Below are positions 10,524 through 32,959 of a stretch of 64,000 nt of DNA, one piece after another. Origin of the DNA: a virus; the IMG/VR virus record IMGVR_UViG_3300036766_000184, positions 1 through 64,000 of that record; one strand, given 5' to 3'. The translations under genes were made by a program, and so were the position numbers. The notes under the pieces are model-generated. The model did no database searches, was not told where the DNA came from, and saw only the letters and a list, made by a program, of their open reading frames with translations. Each line of letters opens with the position of its first letter. The first letter of the stretch is position 1.

Positions 10524-10852
10524 TGTCGGGCGAGCAGCGGGTCGCCGCCCTCGACCCCGAGGACGGCATCCACCTGGTGACCCACGAGGGCACACTGATC
10601 CTGCACGGGGTCGGGGCCAGCCAGCCGGTCATCGGGGCGCTCATCGTCGCGGCGTCGATGGACCCGCAGGGATCGGGCCGGCGACAAGCGTCGTTCGGAT
10701 TGCGCGGCGACATCATCGCGACCCTTGAGGCGCTTGGCTATTTTCTGGCGAACAATCGAGCCGCCTGCGACATAGTGCAGGGGGTGATCGCCATCCATAC
10801 CAGCGGCACGCTGTCCGGCGACCCACCGGCACCACAGGAGGGGCCTACATGA
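10523..10852 (+). CDS. Hypothetical protein
   Basis: TGATG-coupled to terL. Confidence 0.6.
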   Translation: MSGEQRVAALDPEDGIHLVTHEGTLILHGVGASQPVIGALIVAASMDPQGSGRRQASFGLRGDIIATLEALGYFLANNRAACDIVQGVIAIHTSGTLSGDPPAPQEGPT

Positions 10853-11208
10853 CGCATCGAGTCACGGTTTTCGCGCTGGCCGTCATGCTGGCGCTCGTAC
10901 TGCTCGTGGCCCCGACCTCGGAGGCCCACAACGTCGCCAAGGGATCGAATTTCTCCTGCACCTCCACCGCCCAACAGGTCGTCGCCCCTTCCAGCACGAC
11001 CGTCGCCCTGTCGATCTTCAACAACGCGGCCTCCGGGGGCACGGTGATCTACTTCTCGGACAATAGTGAAGTCACGCTGACCTCCAGCACAGGCTTCCCA
11101 CTCCCTGGTCAGGCGGCGTTCTTTTTCACTCCGGGCTATACGGGGGCGATCTGGTGCATCACGGCCTCGGGGACGGCGGACCTGCGCTACCTCAAGGAAG
11201 CCAAGTAG
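10849..11208 (+). CDS. Small beta-rich virion-like protein with signal peptide
   Basis: MTHRVTVFALAVMLALVLLVAPTSEA-; LSIFNN...VIYF...TGFPL...AIWCI pattern. Confidence 0.65.
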   Translation: MTHRVTVFALAVMLALVLLVAPTSEAHNVAKGSNFSCTSTAQQVVAPSSTTVALSIFNNAASGGTVIYFSDNSEVTLTSSTGFPLPGQAAFFFTPGYTGAIWCITASGTADLRYLKEAK

Positions 11209-11210
11209 CC

Positions 11211-13388
11211 ATGCGCTGGCTGCGCGCGTTCCTCATCCTCGCGCTCTTGCTCATCACCTTGCCTGGGCGGGCAGTGGCGGCGGATGGGGCCTATCCGACG
11301 GCGGGCGGGACGACTATCACGGCCAACGACTGCGGGAGCTTGGTCGCCAACGGGATCAGCGCGGCTGGCATCCTGGCCTGTGCGGCGGCTGGTGCGGGTG
11401 TCGTGACCTCCATCACGGGGACGGCGGATCAGGTCACTGTGGGCGGCACGGCGGCGGTGCCGGTCCTCTCACTGCCGAATCCGATCGTGCGGAACGTGAC
11501 CGGCAACGTGAGCGGCAGCTCTGGCTCCACGACGGGCAACGCGGCCACGGCCACCGCCCTCGCCGCCGACGGCGCGAATTGCTCGGCGGGGTCGTTCCCG
11601 CTCGGCGTCGATGCGAGCGGCGCTGCGCAAAACTGCACCGCCCTGCCGACCACCATCACGGGCACCGCGAACGAAATCACCGTGTCGGCCTCGACCGGCC
11701 CCATCACGTTCTCGATCCCCTCCGCGCTGACCTTCACGGGCAAGACGATCACGGGCGGCACGTTCGCGTCGCCGACGTTCTCGGGGACGGCGGCGGGTAC
11801 CTACACCCTCGGCGGGACGCCTTCGATCGCGTACACGGCGCTCACCGGGATGGGCACTGGTGTCGCGACGTTCCTTGCCACGCCGTCGAGCGCGAATCTT
11901 CTCGCCGCGCTCACCGACGAAACAGGAACCGGCGCCGCCGTCTTCGGCACCAGTCCGACGATTGCCGCGCCCGTGCTGTCCGGGACGACGACGGGAACGT
12001 ACACGCTCGGCGGTACACCGACGATCACGAACCCGACGATCAACGCGGCGACCTTCGCCGGGACGTTCGCGGGCACGCCCACGATTTCCGGCGCGTGGAC
12101 GTGGAGCGTCGCGCAGACGATGCCGGGGCTGACGCTCACCGGGAGCGGGGCGGGCTATGCCTCGCTGGCCGACTCCAGCGGCAACTACGCCTGGATCGCC
12201 ACCGGCGCCGGGATTAACTCGTGCCCGGACGCGGGCTCGACGGACACCTACGCGTGCAGCATCACGGACGGCACGCACTCGCTCCAGGTGTACGTGACAG
12301 GGATGCCGTATCGCTTCAAGGCGGCCACGCTGAACACCGGCACCGCGTCGATCAACTTCAATTCGTTGGGCGCGAAGACCATCGTCAAGGTGCTCGGCGG
12401 CATCACGACGGCGCTCGTGACGGGCGACATTCTCGCGGGGCAATGGGTCGAGCTGATCTACGACGGCACGAACATGCAGATGACCTCGCAGAGCGCGCTG
12501 ATGCCGCAACCCGCGCAGGGCGGCACCGGCTCCGCGAACACCGCGACCGCAGGCCGCCATCTGATCGGCGACGGGACGAACTTCATCACCGCTTCGGGGG
12601 TCGAGGAATACTGCCTGGACGCGGTGGGGACCGACACCTACGCCTGCAATCTCTCGCCCGCGATCACGGCGTACATCACGGGCGCGCGGTACGCGGTGAA
12701 GGTCGGGACGCTGAACACGGGCGCGGCCACGATCAACCTGAACGGGCTCGGGGCAAAGTCAATCGTCAAGGTATGCGGCGGGGTGACGACCGCGCTCGTG
12801 ACCGGCGACATTCTGGCCGGGCAAGTGATCGACCTCGCATATGACGGCACGAATATGCAGCTGCAATCGACGATTGCCAGCGGGTTGTGTACCGCACTCA
12901 CGGGCGACGTGACGACCGCCGCTGGGGGTGTGGTGACGACGATTGCGGCGAACGCGGTCACGTCGCCGAAAATGGCCGTCGCGAACACCTACTGGGTGTG
13001 CGACATGATGATCGGCGGGACGGATGAGGCAGTGCTCACGGATGCCAACATCGGGCCGCAGAACAATGCGTGCACAGCTCCGGCGGCGATTACGGTGGTG
13101 GAGGTGCGGGTGATCGCCGACGGTGGCACGCCTAGCGCGCTGCCACGTAATACGACCGTTGGACTCTCGTCTACAAACTTCCTGAGTGGCGCGCTCGCGA
13201 CGGGCGCCTCGGGCGTCGTGGCGTGCTCGAACACGGGCGGCACCACGAGCATCTACGGGACGACGACGTGTACGAATACGCTCACCTCCACGACGCTGGC
13301 GGCAGGGGCGCGGGTCGGCATCGTGTCGGGCACAGCGGGCGGCGTGGCGAAGCAGCTCACGGTGACGGTCATTGGCACACGGAATTAG
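11211..13388 (+). CDS. Tail-fibre-like protein with signal peptide
   Basis: Thr/Gly-rich; ATPSSANLLAALTDETGTGAAVFGTSPT; two copies of the NTGxAxINxNxLGAKxI...GDILAGQ..YDGTNMQ fibre domain. Confidence 0.75.
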   Translation: MRWLRAFLILALLLITLPGRAVAADGAYPTAGGTTITANDCGSLVANGISAAGILACAAAGAGVVTSITGTADQVTVGGTAAVPVLSLPNPIVRNVTGNVSGSSGSTTGNAATATALAADGANCSAGSFPLGVDASGAAQNCTALPTTITGTANEITVSASTGPITFSIPSALTFTGKTITGGTFASPTFSGTAAGTYTLGGTPSIAYTALTGMGTGVATFLATPSSANLLAALTDETGTGAAVFGTSPTIAAPVLSGTTTGTYTLGGTPTITNPTINAATFAGTFAGTPTISGAWTWSVAQTMPGLTLTGSGAGYASLADSSGNYAWIATGAGINSCPDAGSTDTYACSITDGTHSLQVYVTGMPYRFKAATLNTGTASINFNSLGAKTIVKVLGGITTALVTGDILAGQWVELIYDGTNMQMTSQSALMPQPAQGGTGSANTATAGRHLIGDGTNFITASGVEEYCLDAVGTDTYACNLSPAITAYITGARYAVKVGTLNTGAATINLNGLGAKSIVKVCGGVTTALVTGDILAGQVIDLAYDGTNMQLQSTIASGLCTALTGDVTTAAGGVVTTIAANAVTSPKMAVANTYWVCDMMIGGTDEAVLTDANIGPQNNACTAPAAITVVEVRVIADGGTPSALPRNTTVGLSSTNFLSGALATGASGVVACSNTGGTTSIYGTTTCTNTLTSTTLAAGARVGIVSGTAGGVAKQLTVTVIGTRN

Positions 13389-13425: not shown

Positions 13426-14166
13426 ATGATGCGTCTCGTCGTCGCGCTCGCGTTCCTGCTGATCGCTTCGCCCGCATGGGGCGCGGCGGCGTTTGTGCAG
13501 GCGAAAGCCTCGCAGCTTGCCACCGGGAACCCGCCGACCATCGACGTCACGCTGAACGCCTCCGTGGGGAGCGGAAACGGGCTCTGCGGCATGGTGACGC
13601 ACGGCGCCACTGATACCGCCGTCACCGTGAGCGACGACAAGGGGAATACCTACACCATCGTCCGCGATCTCGGGAGCGCGATCCGCGCCACTACGTTCTA
13701 CCTCACGAACATCACCAACGCCCCCACCACCATCACGGCGACGCCGAACGATAGCACGCTGTACATCCAGATCGTCGTGATCGAGATGAGTGGGGTCAAA
13801 ACCTCAGCCGCGCTTGATGTCGAGACGGGGCAACTGCAATCGTCGCCGGGGACGAGCACCGACGCGATCACAAGCGGCGCCGTCACCACCGCCGAAAACG
13901 GGGAATTCGTCTGTGGGTTTTCCGCCGTGACCGACAACCTACAGAGTAATACCTACACGGCGGGCACGAACTTCACCGAACGGGCTGAAGGCGGCAACGG
14001 GTCGTCAGGCGTTGATGCGGTGGGGGAATCGCTCGTGCAAACCTCAGCTGGGAGCATCGCGGCGACGTTTACGCAATCAACGACAAATAGTACGGCGACG
14101 TTCATCATGACGTTCAAGGCGGCGGCAGCGGCGTCATCTATCCGCCACAAGTCGAGTCAGCAATGA
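13426..14166 (+). CDS. Beta-sandwich fibre/decoration-like protein with signal peptide
   Basis: MMRLVVALAFLLIASPAWG-AAAFVQ; VSDDKGNTYT motif typical of phage structural proteins. Confidence 0.65.
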   Translation: MMRLVVALAFLLIASPAWGAAAFVQAKASQLATGNPPTIDVTLNASVGSGNGLCGMVTHGATDTAVTVSDDKGNTYTIVRDLGSAIRATTFYLTNITNAPTTITATPNDSTLYIQIVVIEMSGVKTSAALDVETGQLQSSPGTSTDAITSGAVTTAENGEFVCGFSAVTDNLQSNTYTAGTNFTERAEGGNGSSGVDAVGESLVQTSAGSIAATFTQSTTNSTATFIMTFKAAAAASSIRHKSSQQ

Positions 14167-15785
14167 TGCAGCGCCTTGAACTCGCGCTCTACTACACTGC
14201 GCTCGTCGCGTGCGGAATCGTCATGCTGCTCATTCTCGTGCTCGGGTTCGGGACACCGCGTGCGCATGCGGAAGAGGCTACGATCGCGGACGGGCTCACA
14301 AAAAGCGATTGGCTGCAAGCGGGCGTTAATAACAACGTCGAGTACTCGACCGCGCTGACGAACACCTTCACCACCAATGGCACGACCACGGTGACGGTTG
14401 CGCACCCCTCCCACGGGAAGAGCGTCACGAATAAGTTCACGATCGAGTCAGGTCCCACGATCGACGGTCTCGACATGAACGGGGCGTGGACCATCGCCAG
14501 CGTTCCGAATAGCAACAGCTACACCTTCACGCACACCGGCACGGCGAGCGGGAGCACCGCGACGACGGGCACCGCGGTGTCTACGTTCGGCGCGGCGGCT
14601 GACGACGGGAAACTGCGGTTTCTCTGCTTGATGAGCCACGCCAACTACGACGATCCGATCAAGTTTCCGGGCACGCCGGGCGCCGCGCACCTTCACCACT
14701 ATTTTGGAAATCGTTCAGCCAACTACGCTTCGACGTATCCGCTCTTACGGGCGTCAGGCGATGGCACCTGCGACGGGGGGCCGCTCAATCGCACAGCGTA
14801 TTGGTTCCCCGCGCTGCTCACGCAAAGCGGCACCAAGATGCTGTATCCGCAGGATGCACAGTGGTACTACGTCAATAACCAGCGGCGCAATTTGATTGAG
14901 TACACGAGCCCGGCGTGCCCGAGTGGATCGCTCGCGTGCCCACAGCTTCCCGTGCGCCGTTTGCAGCGCGGACAGAAGGCTATTTTTGGATTCGATCCAA
15001 GCACGGGCGCCTTCCCCGCAGTCTATGCGAGCGCGACGATGTTGGACTCGTTGTGGACGTGCCAAGACACCAGCGGCAACCAACAGGGCGGCGCGTATCG
15101 GTATCTTCACCATCGCAGCAACGCGTCCCTCGGCTTGTCGAGTAACGTCAGTTGCCCATCAGCGGGGAAGGTTGTCGCGCGGGCGGATGCGCCATCATGC
15201 TGGAACGGGGAACTCGATCACGCGGACCACTACAGCCATTTTACGCAACCGTCGCAAGACGGGTACAGCAACCTCGTGTGTCCCGCAACGCACCCCTATA
15301 GTCACGCCACGTTCACGATCATCCTCACGTGGAACTACACAGGAGGATTTTCGCAGATACAAAACTGGTGGCTGTCGTCTGACCGCCACCATGCGGACTA
15401 CGAGGCGGGGCAATCGTTTCATTGGGACATGCTGTTCGCGTGGAACGATGCCGTCATGGATTTCTGGGCGTCGAATATTTGGGGCGCATCCTCCGATCCG
15501 AATGACCCAGCCACCTACGTCTATCGGACGGCGGGCGGGGGCGGCAACGGCGCGGCGGCGTGGGTTGGTGGCAAGCACATGCGGAATACCAACTCGGGCG
15601 GCCTCGGCGTCGTCAGTATCACGCCCTGCGATTCACTCGGGATCTCCGGCTCGTGCTCGCTGAAAGACCGTACGACGCTGGGGCTCACTACGCCCTCGGA
15701 CACCGAGGTTGATATTCCATCCGCGACGGGCACCACGAAAACACTCGGCGGCAAAGCGGCCGTCGGCGGCAAAGGAGCGATGTGA
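14163..15785 (+). CDS. DUF1996-domain protein with signal anchor
   Basis: DDPIKFPGTPGAAHLHHYFGN, NRTAYWFPAL and PSCWNG...CPATHP are DUF1996 motifs; lower GC than its flanks. Confidence 0.75.
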   Translation: MMQRLELALYYTALVACGIVMLLILVLGFGTPRAHAEEATIADGLTKSDWLQAGVNNNVEYSTALTNTFTTNGTTTVTVAHPSHGKSVTNKFTIESGPTIDGLDMNGAWTIASVPNSNSYTFTHTGTASGSTATTGTAVSTFGAAADDGKLRFLCLMSHANYDDPIKFPGTPGAAHLHHYFGNRSANYASTYPLLRASGDGTCDGGPLNRTAYWFPALLTQSGTKMLYPQDAQWYYVNNQRRNLIEYTSPACPSGSLACPQLPVRRLQRGQKAIFGFDPSTGAFPAVYASATMLDSLWTCQDTSGNQQGGAYRYLHHRSNASLGLSSNVSCPSAGKVVARADAPSCWNGELDHADHYSHFTQPSQDGYSNLVCPATHPYSHATFTIILTWNYTGGFSQIQNWWLSSDRHHADYEAGQSFHWDMLFAWNDAVMDFWASNIWGASSDPNDPATYVYRTAGGGGNGAAAWVGGKHMRNTNSGGLGVVSITPCDSLGISGSCSLKDRTTLGLTTPSDTEVDIPSATGTTKTLGGKAAVGGKGAM

Positions 15786-16310: not shown

Positions 16311-18572
16311 ATGGCCCTCGCCCCCGACACGGCAGTCGCCCGCACCGACGTCGACCTCGGCGCCGATGGCTTCAGTGCGGCCATCGCGCGCTCGGAGCCG
16401 ACCGGGAAGGACTACACCGGACTGCGGGACGACCACGCCGAACGGGTGCGCAACTGGTACATCCTCGCGATCAACCATCCGCTCTGGCAGAAGTACATCC
16501 CGGCCGCGCGCGAGGACGAGGGCTACTACATCGGCGGCGACCTCCAGTGGAGCAAAGACGGCTCGCTCGAAGGGCTGAACCGCCTGCGCGAGAAGCGGCG
16601 CACGACGGTCTCGATCAATCACATCCAGGCGGTCGTGGACGTGCTGGTCGGCTTCGAGCGTCAGAACCGATTCGACCTCAAGGCGTCCCCGCAGGGCGAC
16701 GAAGACATCGAGTCCGCGCGCATCTTGTCGTGGCTCCTGAAGTTCGTTCAGGACCAGGCCGAGATCCAGGAGTACGAGAGCGAGGTCTTCGAGGACGGGC
16801 TGATCCGCGGCGCCTCGGCGCTGCACATCAAGATCCGCTGGGACGGCGACGACATCGACGGCGACATCGAGGTCGAGAAGCTGACCCCCGGCGAGGACTG
16901 TCTCTGGGACCCGTACTTCAAGCGCCGCGATCTGTCGGATGCCCGGTTCGTGCAGAAGTTCCGGTGGGCCTACGTCGATGAGGTGGTCGCCCAGTACCCG
17001 GAACACGAGGCGCAGATCGACGCCGAGTTGGCCCCGCTGAATGCCCTCTTCATGCCGATGTTGTCGAACGTCTCGACGGACGGCGGCCGTGGGGATGCCT
17101 ACGGGAGCGTCTCGGCCCCGAGTCTCGATCGCCTGCGCGAAGAGGAGTTGTTCTACGACGCCCGCGACAAACGGGTCCTGCTCGTCGAGACCTGGTATCG
17201 CCATTACGAAGTCGTCTGGAAGGTGGTCAACCGGAGTACGGGCCAGGTCGAGGATATGGCGAGCCAGCAGGACGCGAAGGACCTCGCCAAGGCCGACCCC
17301 TCGGGGAACCTGACTGCGGTCCGGCGCACGCTCAGGAAGATCCGGCACTCGTTGGTCCTGCCCGCGACGTTCTCGACGCTCTTCGAGGAGCCGAGTGAGC
17401 ACGAGAACGACGACGAGGCGTATCCGATCGTCCCGTTCATCGCCAAGAAGAAGCGGGAGTGGATGTACGGGATCGTTCGGAACATGAAGGACCCGCAACT
17501 CCTGGAGAACAAACGGATCAGTCAGGTGGTGGACATCCTCCAGCGGTGGGCGAACATCCGGCCGCTCATCCCGAAGGGGTCGGTCGAGGACGAGCGCGGT
17601 CTCGACGAGCACTGGTCGACGAGCCCGATCGTCTACGACGCCAAGAAGGGGCTGCCGAGCTGGTACGTCCCGACCGGCCTGGAGCAGGTCGCGCGCGGCC
17701 TGATCGAGATCGCGACCCAGTTCAAGATGAACCTGCGCGAGATCACGGGCGTCAACGCGGATCTGCTCGGCCAGCGGGAGGACACGAACTCCGGCATCGC
17801 CATCGCGCGCCGGCAAGCGCAAGGTCAAGTGATCGCGACCGTGTTCTTCGACAACTTCAAGAGTTTCAGGAAGATCGTCGCGCAGCGGGTGTGCCGTCGC
17901 ATCCAGCAGTCGTTCACGAAGGAGCAGGTCCTGCGGCTCATCAACCCCGACACCGGGGAAGCGGTCGAGGTCCGGCTCAACCCGCAAGAGGCGCAGGATC
18001 TCAAGGGCGAGGAGTGGAAGAACTGGGTCGGCGCTCAAACGGAAGGGACGTCCGGCCAGAAGCCCTACATCCTGCGCTCCGTGGAGGCGCTCAAGTACGA
18101 CGTCATCATCAACGAGGGTCCGTCGACTCCGAGCGCGCGCGCGACTGCCCTGATGGCCCTGCTCGAACTCCTCGGCCGGATGCCCTCGATCCTGCCCGCG
18201 GTGGTCGACAAGATCATCAACCTCGCGGAAGTGCCCGACCGGGCCGAGATCATCGAGCGCATCCACGCGATCATGGCCCAGTCCGGGATTCCGACCGGAC
18301 AACCGCCTCCGGCCGGTGGACCTCCGCCGGCGCCAGGTGTCGCGCCCGTTCCCGGCGGGCAGCCGCCCGTGCCCGGCGGGCAACCATCAGTACCGCCACT
18401 CCCGCTCGCCGCCCCGCTGCCGCTGCCAGCACCGTCCGTGGGATCGCAACCCGGCGGCGCGACCGCCTCGATGGCCCCGGCGATTCGACGAGGCGCGACC
18501 AGCAACGCGATGAAGAAGACGCTCTCACTGGCCTCCGGTGGAATGCCTTCTGGCGTCGCCGGTGCAGTTTGA
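16311..18572 (+). CDS. Portal protein (P22-like podoviral)
   Basis: EDEGYYIGGDLQW, SINHIQAVVDVLVGFERQNR, YGIVRNMKDPQ, ITGVNADLLG..SGIAIARRQAQG and KYDVIINEGPST; Pro-rich tail. Confidence 0.88.
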   Translation: MALAPDTAVARTDVDLGADGFSAAIARSEPTGKDYTGLRDDHAERVRNWYILAINHPLWQKYIPAAREDEGYYIGGDLQWSKDGSLEGLNRLREKRRTTVSINHIQAVVDVLVGFERQNRFDLKASPQGDEDIESARILSWLLKFVQDQAEIQEYESEVFEDGLIRGASALHIKIRWDGDDIDGDIEVEKLTPGEDCLWDPYFKRRDLSDARFVQKFRWAYVDEVVAQYPEHEAQIDAELAPLNALFMPMLSNVSTDGGRGDAYGSVSAPSLDRLREEELFYDARDKRVLLVETWYRHYEVVWKVVNRSTGQVEDMASQQDAKDLAKADPSGNLTAVRRTLRKIRHSLVLPATFSTLFEEPSEHENDDEAYPIVPFIAKKKREWMYGIVRNMKDPQLLENKRISQVVDILQRWANIRPLIPKGSVEDERGLDEHWSTSPIVYDAKKGLPSWYVPTGLEQVARGLIEIATQFKMNLREITGVNADLLGQREDTNSGIAIARRQAQGQVIATVFFDNFKSFRKIVAQRVCRRIQQSFTKEQVLRLINPDTGEAVEVRLNPQEAQDLKGEEWKNWVGAQTEGTSGQKPYILRSVEALKYDVIINEGPSTPSARATALMALLELLGRMPSILPAVVDKIINLAEVPDRAEIIERIHAIMAQSGIPTGQPPPAGGPPPAPGVAPVPGGQPPVPGGQPSVPPLPLAAPLPLPAPSVGSQPGGATASMAPAIRRGATSNAMKKTLSLASGGMPSGVAGAV

Positions 18573-18636
18573 CATCGTGCTCCACACGCGCCGTGTAGTA
18601 AAACAGAGACACTAGACAGCAGAGGAGGCTTCAACC

Positions 18637-18930
18637 ATGGGCGAGATCATCCAGGAAGGTGTCGGAGCGGGCGCGAAGTACTTCGAGGAGACCGTGACGG
18701 GCCCGGCGCTCGACAGCGAAGTCACGATGACGGGCAAGGTCGTGTCGGCCAAGGACCTCGACAACGTGGTCATCGAGCTGTCCAACGGTCGCTGCGTCAC
18801 GGTGCCGGCGCGGTCGATCGAGGGCTGCCTGGTGCGCAAAGAAGTGTCGCTGCCCGCGCGGGCAGACGAGGTGGTCGCCGCTCCGGTCGCAGTGCCGGCT
18901 CCGGTCCCGGTCACGACCGAGGCGCCTTAA
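18637..18930 (+). CDS. Hypothetical protein
   Basis: GAGGAGG ribosome-binding site. Confidence 0.65.
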   Translation: MGEIIQEGVGAGAKYFEETVTGPALDSEVTMTGKVVSAKDLDNVVIELSNGRCVTVPARSIEGCLVRKEVSLPARADEVVAAPVAVPAPVPVTTEAP

Positions 18931-18937
18931 GCGCGCC

Positions 18938-24600: not shown

Positions 24601-24651
24601 CGTTCGGCGCACGGACTCCAGGCTGCCCGACCGGGCAAGGAGAGGACACAC

Positions 24652-25791
24652 ATGGCGACCAAGACCGACGGAGGTAGCGTGGCGACAGCGACTGAAGGCG
24701 AGATCGAGATCGTGGTCCCCGAGGGGATGGAAGACATCCTCGACGCGGCGACCGGCGCGCCCGTGCGCCTGGACGGCGATCGTCTCCCGACCGACATCGA
24801 GGGCGCCTTCGCGGGCGACGAGACGATCGGTGAGAACGTACCAGCGCTCGCGCCTGAGCCGGTCGCCGCCGCGACCCCGGCCGCCGAGCCGGTCGTGCCA
24901 TCTACCGAACCCGCCGCCGAGGTGGTCGCGTCACCGCCCCTCGACCCCCGAGCCTCCCGCCACGCCCTTGAAGCGCAGGCCGACCTGGACCGGATCGACG
25001 AAGAGATCGAGCTGGGCCGCAAGACGATGCGCGCGGCGGCCCCGATCGACGCCGAGACGGAGATGTCGGACGAGGACTGGGGCAAGCTCCAGGCCAAGGT
25101 CGTTGAGAAGGCCGGGGAAGCGCAGGACTTCGGCCAGGCCGTCAACGAAGTGTTCTCGACCCTCCGCGAGATCGACAAGCAGAAGGCGGTCACGCGCGCC
25201 TCGAAGCAGACCTTCACCAATCGAAACGCAGCCCTCACGGCCATGACGGAAGCGGCCCGCGAGCGGCACCCGGATTTCGACGCGATCGTGACCGATTCCG
25301 GCATCTGGGCTCAGGCCCACCTGGACAGCCCCACGAAGGACCCGGCGATCTCCAAGCTGGTCTACTCCGCGATCGACCCGGCCGAGAAGGCGTACTGGCT
25401 GGGCCGGACCAAGATTGCCAGGGCGAACAAACGCGATCCCTCGGACCCGGACTTCGCGAAGCCGATCGGGGCGCCGGTCGCCGCCGCCGTGCCCGCCGCC
25501 GTGCCGGCTGTCGTACCGGCTGTTGTGCCAGACCCCGAGCCCGCGCCAGGGACCCCGGCCGCGATCCGCCGGGACGCCACGAGGGCGACCGTCGACAAGC
25601 TGGCGGCCACGAGCACGCGCGGGCGTGGCGTCGACACCTTCACGCCGGCAGGGCGACCCACGACCACGATGTCGATCGAGCGTCTGGACCGACTTCAAGA
25701 GCAGAACCCGGAGGCGTATCAGCGCCTCATCACCGCCAATCCGGGCCTGGGCGACGCCCACATGATGGGCGACCTCACTCAAGTCGCATGA
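24652..25791 (+). CDS. Putative capsid scaffolding protein
   Basis: Acidic and helical; ARERHPDFDAIV...DPAEKAYWLG; directly upstream of the major capsid gene. Confidence 0.7.
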   Translation: MATKTDGGSVATATEGEIEIVVPEGMEDILDAATGAPVRLDGDRLPTDIEGAFAGDETIGENVPALAPEPVAAATPAAEPVVPSTEPAAEVVASPPLDPRASRHALEAQADLDRIDEEIELGRKTMRAAAPIDAETEMSDEDWGKLQAKVVEKAGEAQDFGQAVNEVFSTLREIDKQKAVTRASKQTFTNRNAALTAMTEAARERHPDFDAIVTDSGIWAQAHLDSPTKDPAISKLVYSAIDPAEKAYWLGRTKIARANKRDPSDPDFAKPIGAPVAAAVPAAVPAVVPAVVPDPEPAPGTPAAIRRDATRATVDKLAATSTRGRGVDTFTPAGRPTTTMSIERLDRLQEQNPEAYQRLITANPGLGDAHMMGDLTQVA

Positions 25792-25811
25792 AAATAAGGA
25801 GATAGAGACCC

Positions 25812-26855
25812 ATGAAGACCCTCACCCATCAGCTCCAGGCGGCCTACGAGGCCCTCGGCCTGCCCATCATCATGGGTGGGACGGACACCGAAGTCCTCAC
25901 GGGCGACGCCGTCACCGTCAAGCGGTGGGCGAGTCGTCTCTGGGTCGAGATGCCCCGGTCGATCTACTGGGCGAAGTTCATGAAGACCAACGACATGAAC
26001 TCGATCATCGAGGTCAAGGAAGACCTGGTCGGCCAGCCCGGAGATCAGATCACCTTCACGCTCCTGCGCAAGCTGACGGGCGCCGGCGTGTCGGGTGACA
26101 ACACGATGGAAGGCAGCGAAGAGGCGATGGTGCCGTATTCCGACACCGTGGTCCTCGATCAGGTCAGGAACGCCGTCCGGCTCAAGGGCAAGCTCTCGGA
26201 GCGCCGCACCGCATGGTCGCAGCGCAACGCGGCCAAGACCATCCTCCAGACGTGGATGGCCGAGACGATCGACGACGACATCTTCACCCAGTTCGACAGC
26301 TCCCCGTCGACCGCGCTCTACGGCGGCTCCGCGACCGCGACGGCCAACATCACGACCTCCGACAAGGTGACCCCGAGTCTGTTCAACCGGGCGGTCGCCA
26401 AGTCCCGCAAGTCCATCCCGAAGATCTGGCCGGTGCGCCTGAACGGCAAGGACCTGTTCGTCTCGGTCCTGCACACGGATGTCGCGTACGACCTGGAGCA
26501 GGACTCGACCTGGCAGGCGTTCCAGCGTGACGCGGCGATGCGCGGGGACGACAACCCCATCTTCACCGGCATGAACGGCATGATCGGCGGCGTCATCATC
26601 CACTCGCACGAGAAGGTGCCGATCTCGACCACGTACGGCGCGGGCGGCAATCTGACCGGCGCGGCCAACTTCTTCCTCGGGAGACAGGCGGGACTGTTCG
26701 CTTGGGGTGAGCGTCCCAAGTGGTGGGAAAAGGAATTCGATTACGGGAACGCGACTGGATTTTGCATCGGGGCTACCTGGGACTTCACAAAGGCAGTGTT
26801 TAACAGCGTGGATCACGCTTTCATCAGTCTTCGTTCGTATAGAACTTCCGTCTAG
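25812..26855 (+). CDS. Major capsid protein (N4-gp56/DUF4043-like)
   Basis: DLVGQPGDQITFTL...GVSGDNTMEGSEE...LDQVRNAV; NPIFTG; EKEFDYGN. Confidence 0.9.
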   Translation: MKTLTHQLQAAYEALGLPIIMGGTDTEVLTGDAVTVKRWASRLWVEMPRSIYWAKFMKTNDMNSIIEVKEDLVGQPGDQITFTLLRKLTGAGVSGDNTMEGSEEAMVPYSDTVVLDQVRNAVRLKGKLSERRTAWSQRNAAKTILQTWMAETIDDDIFTQFDSSPSTALYGGSATATANITTSDKVTPSLFNRAVAKSRKSIPKIWPVRLNGKDLFVSVLHTDVAYDLEQDSTWQAFQRDAAMRGDDNPIFTGMNGMIGGVIIHSHEKVPISTTYGAGGNLTGAANFFLGRQAGLFAWGERPKWWEKEFDYGNATGFCIGATWDFTKAVFNSVDHAFISLRSYRTSV

Positions 26856-28746: not shown

Positions 28747-29628
28747 GTGGCGATAAACGACCTCCTGTCGTATGAAGACGTTTTGGATCTCGTGCTCTCG
28801 AAGTCGAACGAGGAGACGGACGGCTCCTCCGACTGGGACCTCGAAGCGCGCGCGGCCGTGGTCGCCCAGCACCGCCGTCTCGTCAACCTCTTCCCGTGGG
28901 TCTGCCTGGAGAAGTCTCCGCCCGGGATGCTCCTGACCACGGCGGCGATCACGAGCCTGACGATCGCCGTCGCGGCGGCCGGGATCGGGGTCGCGGTGAG
29001 CCTCAGCGCGGTGCCGTCCCGAGACATCACGGGCGAGAAGATCACGCTCGGCAAGGACTACGTACTGCGCGTGCTCTCGGGCGGCACGACCGCGACCCCG
29101 GTCGTCGACATGGTGCCGGAAGTGATCGCCTCCGGGACGGCCTGCACGATCTATCAGGACGAGTACACCCTGGCGAGCGACTTCAACATGCTCGTCAACG
29201 GCCTCTGGACCCGCGGTGGGCGCTTCATCCCGGTCACCGATGACGAGCGGACCCGCCGCACCGCCTGGGGCCCGGCTCCGTCGCAGCAAGGCTGGCCGCC
29301 CCGTATGGCGACCATGGTGGGCCCCCAGCGCATCCGCATCTCGGGCTGGGACACGCAGCGCCACCCGATCGAGTACCCCTACACGTATAACCCCGGCGAT
29401 CCGTCCGGAACCGGCGCGATGACGATCGAGCCCAGCTTGCGCGTCCTCCTGGTCTCCATGGCGCTCCCGGAGGTCCTCGATCTCAAGCGCGGGTTTTCGG
29501 AGTCGCTCAAGCTGCGCCAGTTCGAGCCGGGCCTGATCGAGGAAGCCAAGGACACGGATCATCGCCGCCGGCGCGGTGGAGAACTCGGTCGCCTGAGCCG
29601 CGAGCAGTCGGAAAGCCCGTGGGCCTAA
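28747..29628 (+). CDS. Putative head-tail adaptor
   Basis: Position; motifs FPWVCLE, YQDEYTLASDF and GWPPR. Confidence 0.55.
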   Translation: MAINDLLSYEDVLDLVLSKSNEETDGSSDWDLEARAAVVAQHRRLVNLFPWVCLEKSPPGMLLTTAAITSLTIAVAAAGIGVAVSLSAVPSRDITGEKITLGKDYVLRVLSGGTTATPVVDMVPEVIASGTACTIYQDEYTLASDFNMLVNGLWTRGGRFIPVTDDERTRRTAWGPAPSQQGWPPRMATMVGPQRIRISGWDTQRHPIEYPYTYNPGDPSGTGAMTIEPSLRVLLVSMALPEVLDLKRGFSESLKLRQFEPGLIEEAKDTDHRRRRGGELGRLSREQSESPWA

Positions 29629-29632
29629 CCTG

Positions 29633-31210
29633 ATGTGGGATGATACGCAGGATCTGAAGATCGTACTTGGGCGTGAGGGTTTTTTTGGTCTCCGGCAGCG
29701 CGACAGAATAGCGTTGGGCGGCCTCGTCACTCTTCGTAACGCCACCCTGGAAGACAACACGCTGCGCACCGTCGGGGGGGCCTCGAAGTTCGGCATCCCC
29801 GTCACGGGCGCGCCGCATGTCTTGGGCTGCCACGATTACTGGGAAGACCCGATCACTCAGCGCAACGTCGTGATGGGGTCCGATGGCAAGCTCTGGGAAG
29901 ACGACGGGGCGGCCGGGGCGTGGGCTGATGTCACCGGGGCGCTCGGTGCGCTGACCGTGACGGGGGCGGTGCCGCACTTCTCGGACGGTGGGAAAGAGAC
30001 CACAGGGCTGAGCCGGGCTCTGTTCTACGCCGATGGCGTCAACGCGCAACGGGTCCGGCGCGGGTCCGGGGCCTTCGCGGCCTTGACCAACCCGGCCCCT
30101 GAGTGGGCGGGCACGAACCGGCCCCGCGGATTCTTCATCAACCAGCAATACAACTGGGCTTTCGGCAACCCGAGCTTCCCGCACCACCTGATCCGGTCGC
30201 TCGACACGAACCACGAGAACTTCACCGCGACCCCGTTCGCGGCGCCGATCTTCCCCGGTCAGGGGCTCTACATCTCGTGCTGCCTGGACTTCAAGGGCCT
30301 CATCATCGTGTGGAAGTTCCCGGAAGGGGTCTACGCCTACGACACCCGGGACGCCGATTCCTCGAAGTGGTACGCGGTCAAGGTCGGGTCCGGTGGGTGC
30401 CCGAGCCCGACCGGGGCCGAGGTGGTCGAGAACGACGTGATCTGGGTCGATCTCACGGGCGGCCTCCATCTGCTATCGGCCGTGCAGGAAACGGGCTCGG
30501 TCAAGGCCGAGGATCTGTCCTACAAGAAGTTGTCCCGCTACATCCCGGACAAAATCAGCCGGCCGATGCTGACGCGGTGCCAGTTGCGCTACAACCCGGA
30601 TCGCCAGAAAGTCGTCCTGGCCTGTGCCGCACAAGGGTCGACCACGCTCAACCGGCGACTGACGCTGGACTACAACAACAAGGCCGAGGTCGGCGAGCGC
30701 TGGATCATCGAAGACCGGGATGTCAACGAATCCCTCTTCATGCGACGCGACGCAGCCGACAACGTCCTCAAGCCGATCATGGGCGATGACGTCGGGCAGC
30801 TCTGGAAGCTCGACACGGACGCGCGGACCAAGGACGGCGCGGGTTATACCTTCGAGTGGTGGACCGCCGACTCGGATTTCTCGCAGCTTGCGCCGACCTT
30901 CATGGGCAAGTCGATCAACGGGGCCTATATCCAGTTGGTCTACGATCCGCGCGGCTCGGTCGATCACACGATCCGGGTCTGGCGGGACGGGACGATGCGC
31001 CAGTCGATCCCCTTCACGCTGAGCGGCGGGGACAACACACTCCCCTTCGTGTTCCCGATCGTCTTCGGGGCTTCCACGATGATGGCGACGCGGAAACGTC
31101 GGTTGCTCGGGTCTGCGCGCCGCTGGGCGTTCCAGGGGTTGTCGAGCGCGACGGGCGCGGATGTGTCGATTGCGGGACTGATCCTCGGGTTGCACGTTGG
31201 GCGGGAATGA
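29633..31210 (+). CDS. Putative tail nozzle/stabilisation protein (beta-propeller)
   Basis: Size, beta-rich composition, GGCPSP...ENDVIWVD motif, position after the adaptor. Confidence 0.65.
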   Translation: MWDDTQDLKIVLGREGFFGLRQRDRIALGGLVTLRNATLEDNTLRTVGGASKFGIPVTGAPHVLGCHDYWEDPITQRNVVMGSDGKLWEDDGAAGAWADVTGALGALTVTGAVPHFSDGGKETTGLSRALFYADGVNAQRVRRGSGAFAALTNPAPEWAGTNRPRGFFINQQYNWAFGNPSFPHHLIRSLDTNHENFTATPFAAPIFPGQGLYISCCLDFKGLIIVWKFPEGVYAYDTRDADSSKWYAVKVGSGGCPSPTGAEVVENDVIWVDLTGGLHLLSAVQETGSVKAEDLSYKKLSRYIPDKISRPMLTRCQLRYNPDRQKVVLACAAQGSTTLNRRLTLDYNNKAEVGERWIIEDRDVNESLFMRRDAADNVLKPIMGDDVGQLWKLDTDARTKDGAGYTFEWWTADSDFSQLAPTFMGKSINGAYIQLVYDPRGSVDHTIRVWRDGTMRQSIPFTLSGGDNTLPFVFPIVFGASTMMATRKRRLLGSARRWAFQGLSSATGADVSIAGLILGLHVGRE

Positions 31211-32379
31211 GAGGGGTGATCGCTGTGAGACGGATCGGACTGGTACTCGGCCTTATCATGGCGCTCGCGCTCGGTGTCGCGGGGACCGTGTCCGCAGGAA
31301 ACTGCGGGACGTATTCCACGTACTCCACCGGGTCAAGTTTTGGCGCCGCCGACATCAACGGCATCCAGATTCTCCTGGGCCAAACAAACATGACGCCACT
31401 CTGCGTCTCGCCATACGCGGCCACCGCTGGCCAGATGCAGACGACGACCGACCCCTATCCCGCAGGGGCCGTGAGCCTGCCCACGAGTCTTCAAGGCGAA
31501 CTGACCGGCCTCCGCCACGTCATCAAGCAGCTCACGGGCTGGACCTACTGGTACACCCACACGGACGACTTCACCCGGAACGCGACGTGGAACACGCTCG
31601 GGCAGAGCTTCTGCGCGTTCTGCGTGAACATCACCGACACGGCGAGCCATCCGATTTCTAGGTTCATCGACCTCGTGATCGTGGGCACCGGCTCGAAGTT
31701 CTCGGTCGACAAGGCCGGGAATACGGTGATCGGCGGGACGTTGGCGCTCACAGGCGCGTTCACGGGCACGATCCCGGTCACGGCATTCAACAGCGGCACC
31801 GGCGCGTCGGCCTCGACCGTCCTGCACGGCAACAGCACGTGGGGCGCGGTCAATCTCGCCTCCCAGGTCACCGGCAATCTTGGGGTCGCCAACCTCAACA
31901 GCGGCACCGGAGCATCCTCGGCGACCTTCTGGCGTGGTGACGGCACGTGGGGCGCGGCGGGCGCGGCGGTCGTCCAGATCAAAAGCGCGACCTATTCAAC
32001 GGCGGGTACCGCGACTGGAACGACGCTGACCGATAGCGGCCTCTCGGTAACCATCACGCCGACGAGTGCCAGCAATAGCGTGCGCATCACGGCGGTCCAG
32101 AACGGAGTCAGCGTCAACACGGCGGGCCAGTGGGGGCTCTTGAGGCTCCTGCGGGGCGCGGGCGTCATCGCGTCCACGCTGCAATACGGCGGCTCAATCG
32201 CGACCGCCTTCGGGTCGGTCACGGTTGTCATCGGCCCGTACTGTGATAGCCCGGCCACCACTGGGGCCACGACCTACAAGACCCAGTACGCGGGCAGCGC
32301 GGGCGGGGTCAGTATCTCTGTGCAGGACTCATCGTCGACATCGTTCATCGTCGCGGAAGAGGTGACCTCATGTTCGTAA
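31207..32379 (+). CDS. Tail fibre with signal peptide
   Basis: SLQGELTGLRHVIKQLTG..WY docking motif, NSGTGASSATFWRGDGTW repeats, VVQ...SVTITPTSASN tip domain. Confidence 0.75.
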   Translation: MRGVIAVRRIGLVLGLIMALALGVAGTVSAGNCGTYSTYSTGSSFGAADINGIQILLGQTNMTPLCVSPYAATAGQMQTTTDPYPAGAVSLPTSLQGELTGLRHVIKQLTGWTYWYTHTDDFTRNATWNTLGQSFCAFCVNITDTASHPISRFIDLVIVGTGSKFSVDKAGNTVIGGTLALTGAFTGTIPVTAFNSGTGASASTVLHGNSTWGAVNLASQVTGNLGVANLNSGTGASSATFWRGDGTWGAAGAAVVQIKSATYSTAGTATGTTLTDSGLSVTITPTSASNSVRITAVQNGVSVNTAGQWGLLRLLRGAGVIASTLQYGGSIATAFGSVTVVIGPYCDSPATTGATTYKTQYAGSAGGVSISVQDSSSTSFIVAEEVTSCS

Positions 32380-32708
32380 TACTCGCGCTCGCCGTGCTGT
32401 TCGTGACCACGCCCGCGTGGGCGCTCGATGCCAAGGCCATCGCAACGACGATCACGGGCCAGTGCCCGGACGCCGAGTTTTCCTATCAAGGTGACGGGTC
32501 CTCGCTCGGCGCGCACACGGCGGCGAACGGCGACAAGGCCACGGGGCTCACATGGATCGCGTCATCGACCTGTCCCACGAGACCGACACTGGCTGAGATT
32601 CAGGCGTGGGCCGCCGCGAAGCCAGCCCCGGAGAAGATCGCGGATCGTATCGAGGCTGCCAAGACGTTGAACGACCTGAAGGTCATCCTCAAGGAGCGCC
32701 TGAAGTGA
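32370..32708 (+). CDS. Fibre-associated (XkdW/chaperone-like) protein with signal peptide
   Basis: MFVILALAVLFVTTPAWA-; W...PTRPTLAEIQAW. Confidence 0.55.
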   Translation: MFVILALAVLFVTTPAWALDAKAIATTITGQCPDAEFSYQGDGSSLGAHTAANGDKATGLTWIASSTCPTRPTLAEIQAWAAAKPAPEKIADRIEAAKTLNDLKVILKERLK

Positions 32709-32959
32709 TGAGAATGGTGCTCCTCTCGGCCCTCGCGGCTATCCTACTGGTCGTGGGTGCCGCGCAGGCGCAGGCCCCACCGGCGGGGTCGACGTGCGAA
32801 GGTAAGCTCGAAGAGCAGTCGATCATGCTGCAAGCGGTGTCGGCGGGGCGGATTCGGGCCGAGGCCGAGAGCGCGGTGGAGATCGCCCGACTCCGCCAGC
32901 AGGTGCGGGAACTGGCCAAGAAGCTGGACGACGTTGCCCGGACGGGCAAGGGGAACTGA
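32708..32959 (+). CDS. Small coiled-coil protein with signal peptide
   Basis: MRMVLLSALAAILLVVGAAQA-. Confidence 0.6.
   Translation: MRMVLLSALAAILLVVGAAQAQAPPAGSTCEGKLEEQSIMLQAVSAGRIRAEAESAVEIARLRQQVRELAKKLDDVARTGKGN

What the first reader, a model, noticed from the sequence alone, without database searches (positions are those of the whole stretch)
10849..32959. Fibre and structural genes consistently carry Sec-type signal peptides
Seen: seven virion-module ORFs start with basic residues or Met, a hydrophobic core and a small-residue cleavage site. They are 10849 (..APTSEA), 11211 (..GRAVA), 13426 (..SPAWG), 14163 (..PRAHA), 31207 (..GTVSA), 32370 (..TPAWA) and 32708 (..GAAQA). Several are rich in Cys. 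Portal, capsid, adaptor and nozzle lack such leaders. Known: tailed-phage fibres normally fold in the cytoplasm. Inference: the fibres are exported, fold with disulfides in the periplasm and join the particle at or after lysis, or they decorate the host surface.
Basis: partly seen in the sequence, partly recalled or inferred. Interest (0 to 1): 0.72.

Follow-up and report, generated by a model that had tools for sequence, protein, structure and literature searches.

The report
Phage tail fibres carrying export signals
An uncultured 88-kb short-tailed phage from sediment puts ordinary bacterial secretion signals on its tail fibre and six other late proteins, so its host-recognition proteins probably fold outside the cytoplasm where phage particles are built.

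Summary
Observation confirmed. All seven ORFs begin with a charged start, an uncharged hydrophobic core and a small-residue cleavage site. A strict screen passes 13 of 117 genes against 1 of 307 spurious ORFs, and the hits cluster (p 0.004).

The leaders recur in relatives:
- DUF1996 protein: 22 of 23 homologues.
- Fibre 31207: P0002, P0004 and L130.
- 32370: its one homologue.
- 13426 family: leaderless members start exactly at the predicted cleavage point.

Only two of the seven are fibre-like by homology (11211, 31207). Gene 31207 sits after a P22-gp10-like hub gene. Its orthologues in two syntenic relatives (L034, L131) have no leader. L131 starts at the cleavage point, and L034's next gene is a tail assembly chaperone. 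In L130 both the fibre and the next gene carry leaders. A cysteine pair in the 11211 domain occurs only in leader-bearing versions (5 of 8 against 0 of 7).

Export is likely (about 0.8). Whether the exported pool joins particles at lysis is inferred only (about 0.3).

No trained predictor, structure model or experiment was available. This scan has noted the same pattern on other genomes. I found no paper describing it.

The parts
10849..11208 (+). 119-aa ORF with a signal-peptide-like leader (cleavage after ..TSEA), 2 Cys
   Evidence: AGGAGG lies 8 nt upstream and the ATG overlaps the upstream stop. Weak hit to phrog_30212, function unknown, E 2.7e-6. Homologues not examined.
11211..13388 (+). 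725-aa tail-fibre-type protein with leader (..RAVA) and 14 Cys. It has two copies of a roughly 90-aa domain (about 338-425 and 468-555), each with a Cys pair.
   Evidence: The domain recurs in 32 IMG/VR loci and in annotated tail fibres of Pseudomonas phages vB_PpuM-* and E. coli phage Pondi. 12 of the 26 homologue ORFs I read have leaders. The Cys pair occurs only in leader-bearing versions.
13426..14166 (+). 246-aa single-domain protein with leader (..PAWG), 2 Cys
   Evidence: The family has 1,909 representative clusters at E up to 0.001. Of 12 aligned members, 9 have leaders and 3 start exactly at the mature end. It occurs in runs of leader-bearing ORFs in IMG/VR locus L134.
14163..15785 (+). 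540-aa DUF1996 protein with a long leader (..RAHA), 10 Cys in the mature part
   Evidence: Pfam PF09362, 76.6 bits against a cut-off of 27. 22 of 23 fetched homologues have leaders. There are 8 invariant Cys and the sequence just after the cleavage site is conserved.
31207..32379 (+). Tail fibre (390 aa from ATG 31207, 384 aa from GTG 31225) made of a leader (..TVSA), a conserved N-domain starting GNC, fibre repeats and a tip domain
   Evidence: It lies directly after the hub gene. Syntenic orthologues L130 (with leader) and L034 and L131 (without) are. No leaderless paralogue exists in the genome.
32370..32708 (+). 112-aa ORF with leader (..PAWA) at the position of a fibre partner or chaperone
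   Evidence: Its single homologue P0190 (49% identity) keeps the leader but not the 2 Cys. No chaperone homology was detected.
32708..32959 (+). 83-aa ORF with leader or membrane anchor (..AAQA) and a coiled-coil-looking tail, 1 Cys
   Evidence: No embedded lipoprotein partner. Homologues not examined.
28747..31210 (+). Context: adaptor-like gene (28747-29628) and a 525-aa tail hub gene (29633-31210), both without leaders
   Evidence: In the Atlas, the hub gives TM 0.83-0.85 to a viral cluster in which 17% of members carry PF11134 (P22 gp10 family); this is a lead only. Both genes are conserved in the same order in L034, L130 and L131. Not flagged. No match to isolated phages.
16311..26855 (+). 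Context: portal (16311-18572) and major capsid protein (25812-26855), without leaders. DNA methylase, helicase and HNH genes lie between them.
   Evidence: phrog_156 at 3.8e-91 and phrog_334 at 1.6e-66. The capsid is 33-35% identical to Bcep22-type capsids.
32960..51103 (+). Context: two proteins of about 585 aa and a 4,873-aa giant protein after the fibre block, with no Cys in 6,045 aa. Internal or ejection proteins by position.
   Evidence: The position matches Bcep22 gp74-gp75.

Best explanation
The seven leaders are genuine Sec-type signal peptides that signal peptidase I cleaves. The proteins are made late, from two tightly packed gene blocks, and are moved unfolded across the inner membrane. 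They fold in the periplasm, where their cysteines can pair.

Gene 31207 is the phage's own tail fibre. After cleavage it begins at the same residue as the leaderless fibres of syntenic relatives, and it keeps their N-terminal domain, which docks on the tail hub. The two small exported proteins after it (32370, 32708) are its partners.

DNA-filled, fibre-less particles wait in the cytoplasm. The fibre is added as the last assembly step, when holin lesions merge cytoplasm and periplasm at lysis.

The upstream block (10849-15785) holds a second fibre-type protein, a lectin-like domain protein and a DUF1996 enzyme-like protein. It is exported in the same way. It either adds further appendages or acts freely on envelope glycans.

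Shown: the leader anatomy, its conservation, the orthology and synteny of the fibre, and the cysteine patterns.
Inferred: export itself (about 0.8), and attachment at lysis (about 0.3, which is the confidence given).
For: - Leader anatomy in 7 of 7 ORFs. A strict screen passes 13 of 117 genes against 1 of 307 spurious ORFs, and hits are adjacent more than in shuffles (p 0.004).
- Controls: T7 0 of 16, Bcep22 0 of 28.
- Leaders kept in character but not in sequence: DUF1996 homologues 22 of 23; fibre homologues P0002, P0004 and L130; P0190.
- Leaderless members start at the predicted cleavage point. This holds for 3 of 12 aligned members of the 13426 family and for the L131 fibre.
- The same three genes, in the same order (adaptor-like, hub, fibre), occur in L034 and L130. 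L131 holds the hub and the fibre.
- L034's fibre is followed by a Pfam tail assembly chaperone (PF16778, 46.2 bits against 26.6).
- In L130 both the fibre and the next gene carry leaders. In L034 neither does.
- No leaderless copy of any of the eight leader-bearing proteins is in the genome. No other fibre-like gene turned up in the PHROGs and Pfam scans.
- The Cys pair in the 11211 domain occurs in 5 of 8 leader-bearing proteins and 0 of 7 leaderless ones.
- Cys content is 1.71% in the leader set and 0 in 6,045 aa of internal proteins.
- 11 of 12 leader-bearing homologues in IMG/VR have Gln at +1, the Bacteroidota rule for signal peptidase I substrates (abstract start of PMC10653852).
- Exported, phage-fibre-like trimers do fold outside the cytoplasm in Bdellovibrio (passages of PMC10769870).
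- That tailspikes can be added to P22 heads in vitro as the last step is recalled, not seen here.
Against: - No trained predictor, no structure model and no experiment was available.
- L034 and L131 show that this fibre family works without a leader.
- In-frame ATG 31258, the public gene call, and GTG 31288 could give a leaderless isoform.
- The N-domain Cys pair (GNC...C) is also kept in the leaderless orthologues. The two Cys of 32370 are not kept in P0190.
- No homology of 32370 to any chaperone.
- The upstream block lies outside the tail operon. DUF1996 is common in bacterial genomes (204 loci), so that block may be accessory.
- Fibres and particles would be diluted at lysis.
- No lysis genes could be named and the host envelope is unknown.
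- The co-variation rests on very few loci and is not corrected for relatedness.
- Later checks of similar findings in this scan priced the bold reading at about 10 in 100.
Confidence: 0.3

Rival explanations
1. Two pools. The leader-bearing form is exported and acts freely in the envelope. It could mask or cut the receptor glycan, block superinfection, or stop progeny sticking to debris. A leaderless isoform, made from an internal start (ATG 31258 or GTG 31288) or escaping export, stays in the cytoplasm and builds the virion fibre.
For: - In-frame ATG inside the hydrophobic core of the fibre leader in this phage and in L130.
- The public gene call starts at 31258.
- GTG codons lie next to the cleavage site in 11211, 13426 and 31207.
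- Leaderless orthologues show that the mature fibre folds in the cytoplasm.
- The genome also holds a weak Wzy_C-like membrane protein and a protein with Wzz-like architecture. These hint at envelope glycan remodelling.
Against: - No Shine-Dalgarno-like motif before 31258.
- P0002 and P0004 have no internal Met in the leader.
- GTG is the common Val codon in 66% G+C DNA, so nearby GTGs are expected by chance.
- The leader on the downstream partner co-varies with the leader on the fibre. That fits one shared compartment better than two pools.
Confidence: 0.25
2. Exported accessory proteins only. None of the seven is a virion part. They are phage-borne secreted glycan-binding or glycan-cutting proteins, built from fibre-type and cellular domains, that change the host envelope during infection. 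The particle uses another receptor-binding protein that has not been recognised.
For: - DUF1996 proteins are common leader-bearing proteins of bacteria. The 13426 family is large, at 1,909 clusters of unknown origin.
- The block 10849-15785 lies between a 551-aa gene and the portal, not in the tail operon, and has lower third-position G+C.
- Phage genes of unknown function with host-type signal peptides were noted in Porphyromonas phages and read as envelope modifiers (passage of PMC10367356).
Against: - Gene 31207 keeps the N-domain shared with leaderless fibres that sit after the hub gene and before a tail assembly chaperone.
- No other fibre-like gene was found.
- No integrase or resolvase is present, so long-term conversion of a lysogen is unlikely.
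Confidence: 0.2
3. Not export signals. The hydrophobic N-termini are mis-called starts. Or they are uncleaved anchors that hold the proteins in the inner membrane, or that insert into the host membrane at infection, as in ejection proteins. For 32370 and 32708 they could be holin- or spanin-like lysis proteins.
For: - Bcep22 gp70 is annotated as a virion protein with a 'potential signal peptide'. Its JC1 homologue gp64 was found in virions (passages and Table 6 of PMC9144972). Its N-terminus looks like a membrane segment rather than a classic leader.
- 32708 is small, with one N-terminal hydrophobic helix and a charged coiled tail.
- T7 has a holin right after its fibre gene.
Against: - Small -3/-1 residues in 7 of 7.
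- Leaderless homologues begin exactly at the predicted cleavage point.
- Gln at +1 in 11 of 12 Bacteroidota-type homologues.
- For 10849 and 32370 no start codon lies downstream of the hydrophobic core within 60 codons.
- No lipoprotein partner lies in or next to 32708.
- Only 1 of 307 spurious ORFs passes the screen.
Confidence: 0.15

Closest known systems
Leaderless tail fibres and tailspikes of short-tailed phages that dock by an N-terminal domain on the adaptor and hub (P22 gp9 on gp4/gp10 type). Here the direct comparison is with the fibres of IMG/VR locus L034 and metagenome locus L131.
   Same: Same locus after the hub gene. Same N-domain, 42-46% identical over about 90-110 residues. 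Modular distal parts are shared with other fibres. A tail assembly chaperone follows in L034.
   Different: This phage, L130, P0002 and P0004 add a cleavable export leader in front of that domain. Here and in L130 the next gene also carries one.
Bdellovibrio bacteriovorus MAT fibres (Caulton et al. 2024, PMC10769870; passages read)
   Same: Phage-tail-fibre-like trimers with a signal peptide, directly followed by a conserved N-domain of about 130 aa and variable tips. They are exported and displayed outside the cytoplasm.
   Different: They are cellular genes of a predator, anchored on its own surface, and not part of a virus particle. Sequence homology to the proteins here was not tested.
Phage genes with host-type signal peptides in Porphyromonas phages (Matrishin et al. 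2023, PMC10367356; passages read)
   Same: Phage-encoded proteins adapted to the host's general secretion system, including the Gln at +1 rule. I also see that rule in 11 of 12 leader-bearing homologues of the 11211 domain.
   Different: That paper names capsid proteins, spanins and five unknowns. The passages I read do not mention tail fibres.
Bcep22-type podophages (Lessievirus), including gp70 annotated 'contains potential signal peptide'
   Same: Related capsid (33-35% identity) and portal (24%), and a giant virion protein at the same position. The JC1 homologue of gp70 is in virions.
   Different: Their three or four tail fibre genes have no leaders (0 of 28 ORFs flagged). gp70 looks like a membrane-active internal protein.
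Filamentous phage coat proteins and exported lysis proteins (spanins, signal-anchored endolysins); recalled, not looked up here
   Same: Virus proteins that use the host's Sec machinery.
   Different: Filamentous phages assemble at the membrane by design. Lysis proteins are not virion parts. No tailed-phage fibre is known to me to be exported.

Membership tests
Sec-type signal peptide cleaved by signal peptidase I | At the very N-terminus: a short N-region of net charge 0 or more, then an uncharged hydrophobic core of about 10-20 residues | tested here: met
   7 of 7. Net charge is 0 for 14163 and 32370, and +1 or +2 for the rest.
Sec-type signal peptide cleaved by signal peptidase I | Small uncharged residues at -3 and -1 a few residues after the core, and no lipobox Cys at +1 | tested here: met
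   7 of 7. The LVAC inside the core of 14163 is not kept in the 17 aligned homologues.
Sec-type signal peptide cleaved by signal peptidase I | Leader kept in character but not in sequence among homologues; the mature part starts at a fixed point | tested here: met
   - 14163: 22 of 23.
- 31207: P0002, P0004, L130.
- 32370: 1 of 1.
- 13426: 9 of 12 aligned, including itself; the 3 leaderless start at the cleavage point.
- 11211: 12 of 26.
- Not examined for 10849 and 32708.
Sec-type signal peptide cleaved by signal peptidase I | Positive call by a trained predictor (SignalP or similar) | not testable with these tools
   No such predictor is on hand. Only my own rule-based screens were run.
Sec-type signal peptide cleaved by signal peptidase I | Export and cleavage shown experimentally | not testable with these tools
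   Uncultured phage from a sediment metagenome.
Tat (twin-arginine) signal peptide | S/T-R-R-x-F-L-K motif before a weakly hydrophobic core (motif recalled) | tested here: not met
   Only the 31225 form begins M-R-R. None of the seven has the motif, and the cores are strongly hydrophobic (mean Kyte-Doolittle 2.2-3.1).
Tailed-phage tail fibre (gene 31207) | Gene in the tail operon next to the hub or adaptor genes | tested here: met
   Directly after the 525-aa hub gene. The order is kept in L034, L130 and L131. The hub identity is a lead only.
Tailed-phage tail fibre (gene 31207) | Shares domains with proteins annotated as tail fibres; a fibre chaperone follows in relatives | tested here: met
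   The tip domain is 36% identical over residues 283-388 to a stretch of Pelagibacter phage HTVC026P annotated 'putative tail fiber protein | hypothetical protein' (E 6e-5). Repeats are shared with many fibre-like proteins. PF16778 chaperone lies after the L034 orthologue.
Tailed-phage tail fibre (gene 31207) | Trimeric fibrous fold; presence in purified particles | not testable with these tools
The Atlas model of the N-part is poor (pTM 0.43). There is no culture.
Tailed-phage tail fibre (gene 11211) | Shares domains with annotated tail fibres | tested here: met
   42-43% identity over two pieces within residues 356-554 (20% of the query covered) to tail fibres of six Pseudomonas phages vB_PpuM-*; also E. 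coli phage Pondi.
Tailed-phage tail fibre (gene 11211) | Gene lies in the tail operon | tested here: not met
   It lies between an unassigned 551-aa gene and the portal gene.
DUF1996 (Pfam PF09362), gene 14163 | Match above Pfam's gathering score | tested here: met
   76.6 bits against 27, covering profile positions 1-237 of 237.
Tail fibre assembly chaperone (PF16778 / XkdW), gene 32370 | Sequence or profile match to the family | tested here: not met
   No Pfam hit for 32370. P0190 gives a weak XkdW hit, E 0.056. hhalign probability to the L034 chaperone is 0.15%. Only the position after the fibre fits.
Two-component spanin (gene 32708 as the inner-membrane part) | Adjacent or embedded outer-membrane lipoprotein partner within a lysis cassette | tested here: not met
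   The one embedded ORF I translated (32428-32670, inside 32370) is Arg-rich and has no lipobox; no other-frame ORF of 50 aa or more lies within 32708-32959. The nearest gene I read as a lipoprotein starts at 52963.
Bdellovibrio MAT fibre family | Signal peptide directly followed by a conserved N-domain of about 130 aa, then a variable fibre | tested here: inconclusive
   The same layout is seen in 31207 and its homologues. Homology to MAT proteins was not tested; the feature is taken from a passage of PMC10769870.

The most novel reading that the evidence does not exclude
The last step of building this tailed phage takes place outside the cytoplasm. The canonical tail fibre and its partner proteins are exported by Sec, oxidised and folded in the periplasm, and snap onto finished fibre-less particles only when the inner membrane is breached at lysis.

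Leader-bearing fibre-type genes occur in runs in many unrelated viral contigs, and their leaders are tuned to the host. So this would be a widespread second route of tailed-phage morphogenesis that cultured model phages do not show.
Probability: 0.25. Interest if true: 0.9.

Novelty: new variant of a known kind. Interest (0 to 1): 0.7.

Why it matters
Textbook assembly of tailed phages is wholly cytoplasmic. A canonical tail fibre that carries a conserved, host-adapted export signal breaks that picture in one of two ways. Either particles are finished outside the cytoplasm, or phages release free copies of their receptor-binding proteins into the host envelope.

Either reading bears on several things:
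- How host range is set.
- How fibres gain disulfides, and perhaps sugars, that stabilise them in the environment.
- How progeny avoid being trapped on debris.
- How receptor-binding proteins should be expressed for phage engineering, since a periplasm-folded fibre may misfold in the cytoplasm.

This window adds an unusually clean test case. Orthologous fibres with and without the leader sit at one locus, and the leaderless ones start at the predicted cleavage point.

Tried and rejected
- **Structure route.** Sequence searches of the PDB gave nothing for 11211, 31225 and 14163. The Atlas search of the fibre N-domain gave only sub-threshold leads (0.86-0.89, TM 0.39-0.46).
- **Close relatives.** megablast of 16311-31210 against phages found no match. 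tblastn of the hub gene against phages found no match. An IMG/VR scan with the hub protein found none. Only the portal and capsid match Bcep22.
- **Family scans.** PHROGs and Pfam gave nothing for most tail-module and lysis-region proteins.
- **Terminase.** 8868-10523 has no terminase signal. A weak Terminase_6C-like hit lies on minus-strand gene 79393-80649.
- **Host envelope.** No lysis gene could be named. I read a lipoprotein at 52963 and membrane proteins next to it by eye only.
- **Temperate lifestyle.** No PF00589 or PF00239.
- **Separate transcription units.** No promoter-like sites, and terminator-like sites no higher than about two standard deviations above the shuffled mean (5 against 4.9, sd 2.1; 10 against 5.4, sd 2.2).
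- **Rejected readings.** Tat signals, lipoprotein signals, a spanin pair at 32370/32708, and 32370 as a detectable chaperone homologue.
- **My first two leader screens were too loose.** The second flagged 18 of 117 genes and 17 of 429 spurious ORFs. I replaced them with the screen.
- **Rows dropped.**
  - In one search I read 26 of the 32 loci. L025, L027 and L029-L032 were left out as short or truncated.
  - In one search my pattern found the domain in 15 of those 26 ORFs.
  - In one search I aligned 17 of the 23 homologues fetched.
- **Hand-computed statistics.** The Fisher values for one search are 0.019 with the window and 0.035 without it, one-sided, computed by hand.
- **Sequencing runs.** One DNA run from a sediment metagenome, possibly the source; no RNA holder listed.
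- **Literature.** Searches (listings and abstract starts only) showed no paper on Sec leaders on tailed-phage fibres. Searches did not bring up the original Bcep22 paper. One search found no known function for DUF1996. Search 104 and one search did not yield the P22 in vitro tailspike statement, so that point is recalled.

Full report
**What the window is.** The window is the first 64 kb of a single 87,863-base IMG/VR virus record of 66% G+C.
- About the first 155 bases recur at the end of the record. I therefore read it as a complete or nearly complete genome, although IMG/VR classes it as linear and CheckV estimates 83% completeness.
- One public DNA run, from a sediment metagenome, holds it.
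- Nearly all genes lie on the + strand.
- The portal (16311-18572) and major capsid protein (25812-26855) are clear.
- The capsid is 33-35% identical to those of Bcep22-type podophages. As in Bcep22, a giant protein (36482-51103, 4,873 aa) follows the tail genes.
- Only the portal and capsid match Bcep22 by tblastn, so the phage is a distant relative.
- No tyrosine integrase or serine recombinase family was found.

**The observation.** Each has a short N-region, an uncharged hydrophobic core and small residues at -3/-1.
- My first screens were too loose.
- A stricter screen passes 13 of 117 called genes, including all seven, an eighth at genome 83250-83999, one lipoprotein, and four others (three with uncleaved-looking anchors and one with a lipobox-like start).
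- The same screen passes 1 of 307 spurious ORFs of 80 aa or more from the same DNA.
- Flagged genes are adjacent more often than in shuffles (p 0.004).
- It flags 0 of 16 large ORFs in T7 and 0 of 28 in 41 kb of Bcep22.
- Portal, capsid, adaptor-like and hub genes are not flagged.

The starts are supported by gene packing and by Shine-Dalgarno-like motifs. For 10849 and 32370 no start codon lies beyond the hydrophobic core within 60 codons. The fibre has three candidate starts, and the public gene call uses ATG 31258, which truncates the leader.

**Are the leaders real?** SignalP was not available, so I used comparative tests.
- *14163.* This is a DUF1996 protein (76.6 bits). 22 of 23 fetched homologues carry leaders that differ in sequence. 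The residues just after the cleavage site and 8 cysteines are invariant in the 18-row alignment.
- *13426.* It belongs to a family of 1,909 representative clusters. In an alignment of 12 members, 9 have leaders. The 3 without begin with Met placed exactly at the predicted mature end.
- *32370.* Its one homologue, at 49% identity, keeps the leader.
- *11211.* It shares a duplicated domain with 32 IMG/VR loci. Of the 26 ORFs I read, 12 have leaders and 14 do not; one of the 14 is ambiguous.
- *Gln at +1.* 11 of those 12 leaders are followed by Gln. That is the rule for signal peptidase I substrates in Bacteroidota (abstract start of PMC10653852; also noted for phage genes in PMC10367356). Those leaders are therefore tuned to the host's export system.
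- *Cys pair.* A pair of cysteines flanking a conserved loop of this domain occurs in 5 of 8 leader-bearing proteins and 0 of 7 leaderless ones. Hand-computed one-sided Fisher is 0.019, or 0.035 without the window. It is not corrected for relatedness.
- *Cys content within the genome.* The eight leader-bearing proteins hold 1.71% Cys. The three proteins after the fibre block hold none in 6,045 aa, the portal holds 2 in 753, and the capsid 1 in 347.

**Are they fibres?** Only two are fibre-like by homology.
- 11211 matches annotated tail fibres of Pseudomonas phages vB_PpuM-* and E. coli phage Pondi.
- 31207 has repeats and a tip domain shared with many fibre-like proteins, and with a stretch of Pelagibacter phage HTVC026P annotated 'putative tail fiber protein | hypothetical protein'.
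- 14163 is an enzyme-like DUF1996 protein. Its domain is common in bacterial genomes (204 loci, mostly Sphingomonadales, Bdellovibrionota and Acidimicrobiia). It also occurs in 14 IMG/VR loci. The screen flags a leader in 9 of them and I see one more by eye; 3 start just before the domain and 1 is open at its 5' end.
- 10849, 13426, 32370 and 32708 have no assignable function.

**The key locus.** Gene 31207 follows a 525-aa gene. The Atlas model of that gene resembles viral beta-propeller tail proteins, and one neighbouring cluster carries the P22 gp10 family in 17% of its members. This is a lead only.

Three relatives keep the order of the hub gene and the fibre gene:

| Relative | G+C | Fibre leader | Other features |
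|---|---|---|---|
| L034 | not measured | none: about 36 bases separate the hub gene's stop from the conserved GNC | next gene is a Pfam tail assembly chaperone (46.2 bits against 26.6) |
| L131 | 53% | none: the fibre starts Met-Ala and then GNC | - |
| L130 | 68% | clear leader | the next gene also has a clear leader |

L034 and L130 also keep the adaptor-like gene ahead of the hub.

- P0002 and P0004 are the closest homologues of the N-domain. They too have full leaders of unrelated sequence, and four invariant Cys follow.
- So the leader is an add-on to a genuine tail fibre gene, and mature leader-bearing fibres start where leaderless ones start.
- The genome holds no leaderless copy of any of these proteins.

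**The wider pattern.** Runs of consecutive leader-bearing large ORFs occur in unrelated viral contigs.
- In L007 (42% G+C) four in a row lie between a large terminase gene, a portal-sized gene and a capsid gene.
- Similar runs are in L003, L012, L015, L018, L024 and L134.
- In the IMG/VR loci fetched through the 11211 domain, 33 of 249 large ORFs are flagged. These loci were chosen through a leader-bearing query, so the rate is biased upwards.

This scan has noted the same pattern on many other genomes. Several follow-ups confirmed the observation, and later checks priced the bold reading at about 10 in 100. I treat those notes as leads, not as evidence.

**Mechanism.** I hold export at about 0.8. 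For the fate of the fibre I rank four readings:
- It joins finished particles when holin lesions merge the compartments (0.3).
- An exported pool acts in the envelope while a leaderless isoform supplies the particle (0.25).
- None of the seven is a virion part (0.2).
- The leaders are not export signals (0.15).

- The docking domain is retained, and no other fibre gene exists.
- The leader on the next gene co-varies with the leader on the fibre.
- Exported fibre-like trimers are known to fold outside the cytoplasm in Bdellovibrio.

Against it:
- The family works without a leader.
- Internal starts exist.
- The evidence rests on few loci.
- Nothing was measured.

The upstream block (10849-15785) lies outside the tail operon. 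It has lower third-position G+C. It is the part most likely to be accessory.

A weak Wzy_C-like membrane protein (17.6 bits, below the cut-off) and a protein with Wzz-like architecture (no Pfam hit) lie nearby on the circular map. They hint that envelope glycans are a target.

**Novelty.**
- Phage genes with host-type signal peptides have been noted before (PMC10367356, passages), and so have exported fibre-like trimers of bacteria (PMC10769870, passages).
- I found no paper describing Sec leaders on tail fibres of tailed phages (searches; listings and abstract starts only).
- I rate this a new variant of a known kind. It would be categorically new if the exported pool proves to build the particle.

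Noticed in passing
window 32960-51103: The three proteins after the fibre block (588, 584 and 4,873 aa) contain no cysteine in 6,045 residues. This fits proteins that must unfold and pass through the tail.
   Followed up: partly
window 2967-3890, and genome 86210-87529 (L129:6210-7529): A 307-aa protein has one membrane segment at each end and a long helical middle. That is Wzz-like architecture only, with no Pfam hit. A 439-aa protein with many membrane segments gives a weak Wzy_C hit (E 0.0035, 17.6 bits against a cut-off of 31.7). Together they may form a surface-polysaccharide remodelling pair.
   Followed up: partly
genome 83250-83999 (L129:3250-3999): An eighth leader-bearing ORF (249 aa, 4 Cys) lies far from the virion genes. 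It has no Pfam or PHROGs hit.
   Followed up: partly
L034:9966-10138: The leaderless fibre orthologue has no ATG, GTG or TTG in frame between the upstream stop and its conserved N-domain. Possible causes are an unusual start codon, a frameshift or a contig error.
   Followed up: partly
L007:9911-16510; also L003, L012, L015, L018, L024, L134: Runs of two to four consecutive leader-bearing large ORFs lie inside the structural modules of unrelated viral contigs of 42-58% G+C.
   Followed up: partly
IMG/VR loci L002-L024 (homologues of the 11211 domain): 11 of 12 leaders are followed by Gln, the Bacteroidota rule for exported proteins. This suggests those contigs are phages of Bacteroidota.
   Followed up: partly
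window 1-155 and genome 87709-87863: About the first 155 bases of the contig recur at its end, although IMG/VR classes the record as linear.
   Followed up: partly
window 7627-8829 and genome 73794-74981: Two transposase genes of about 400 aa. The first hits phrog_506 at E 1.1e-88. The second starts with a similar sequence. One sits just before the 551-aa gene that precedes the first leader block.
   Followed up: no
window 19733-24093 and 26881-27519: DNA methylase, helicase and HNH endonuclease genes are interleaved between the portal and capsid genes, and just after the capsid gene.
   Followed up: no
several homologues of 13426 (P0201, P0203, P0211, P0219): Leader-bearing members often end in a shared L-M/L-G-V-G/x tail. 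It could be a sorting or anchoring signal.
   Followed up: no
homologues of 14163 (A3, last columns): Many DUF1996 homologues end in a short, strongly basic tail after a conserved I/V-P. Its function is unknown.
   Followed up: no
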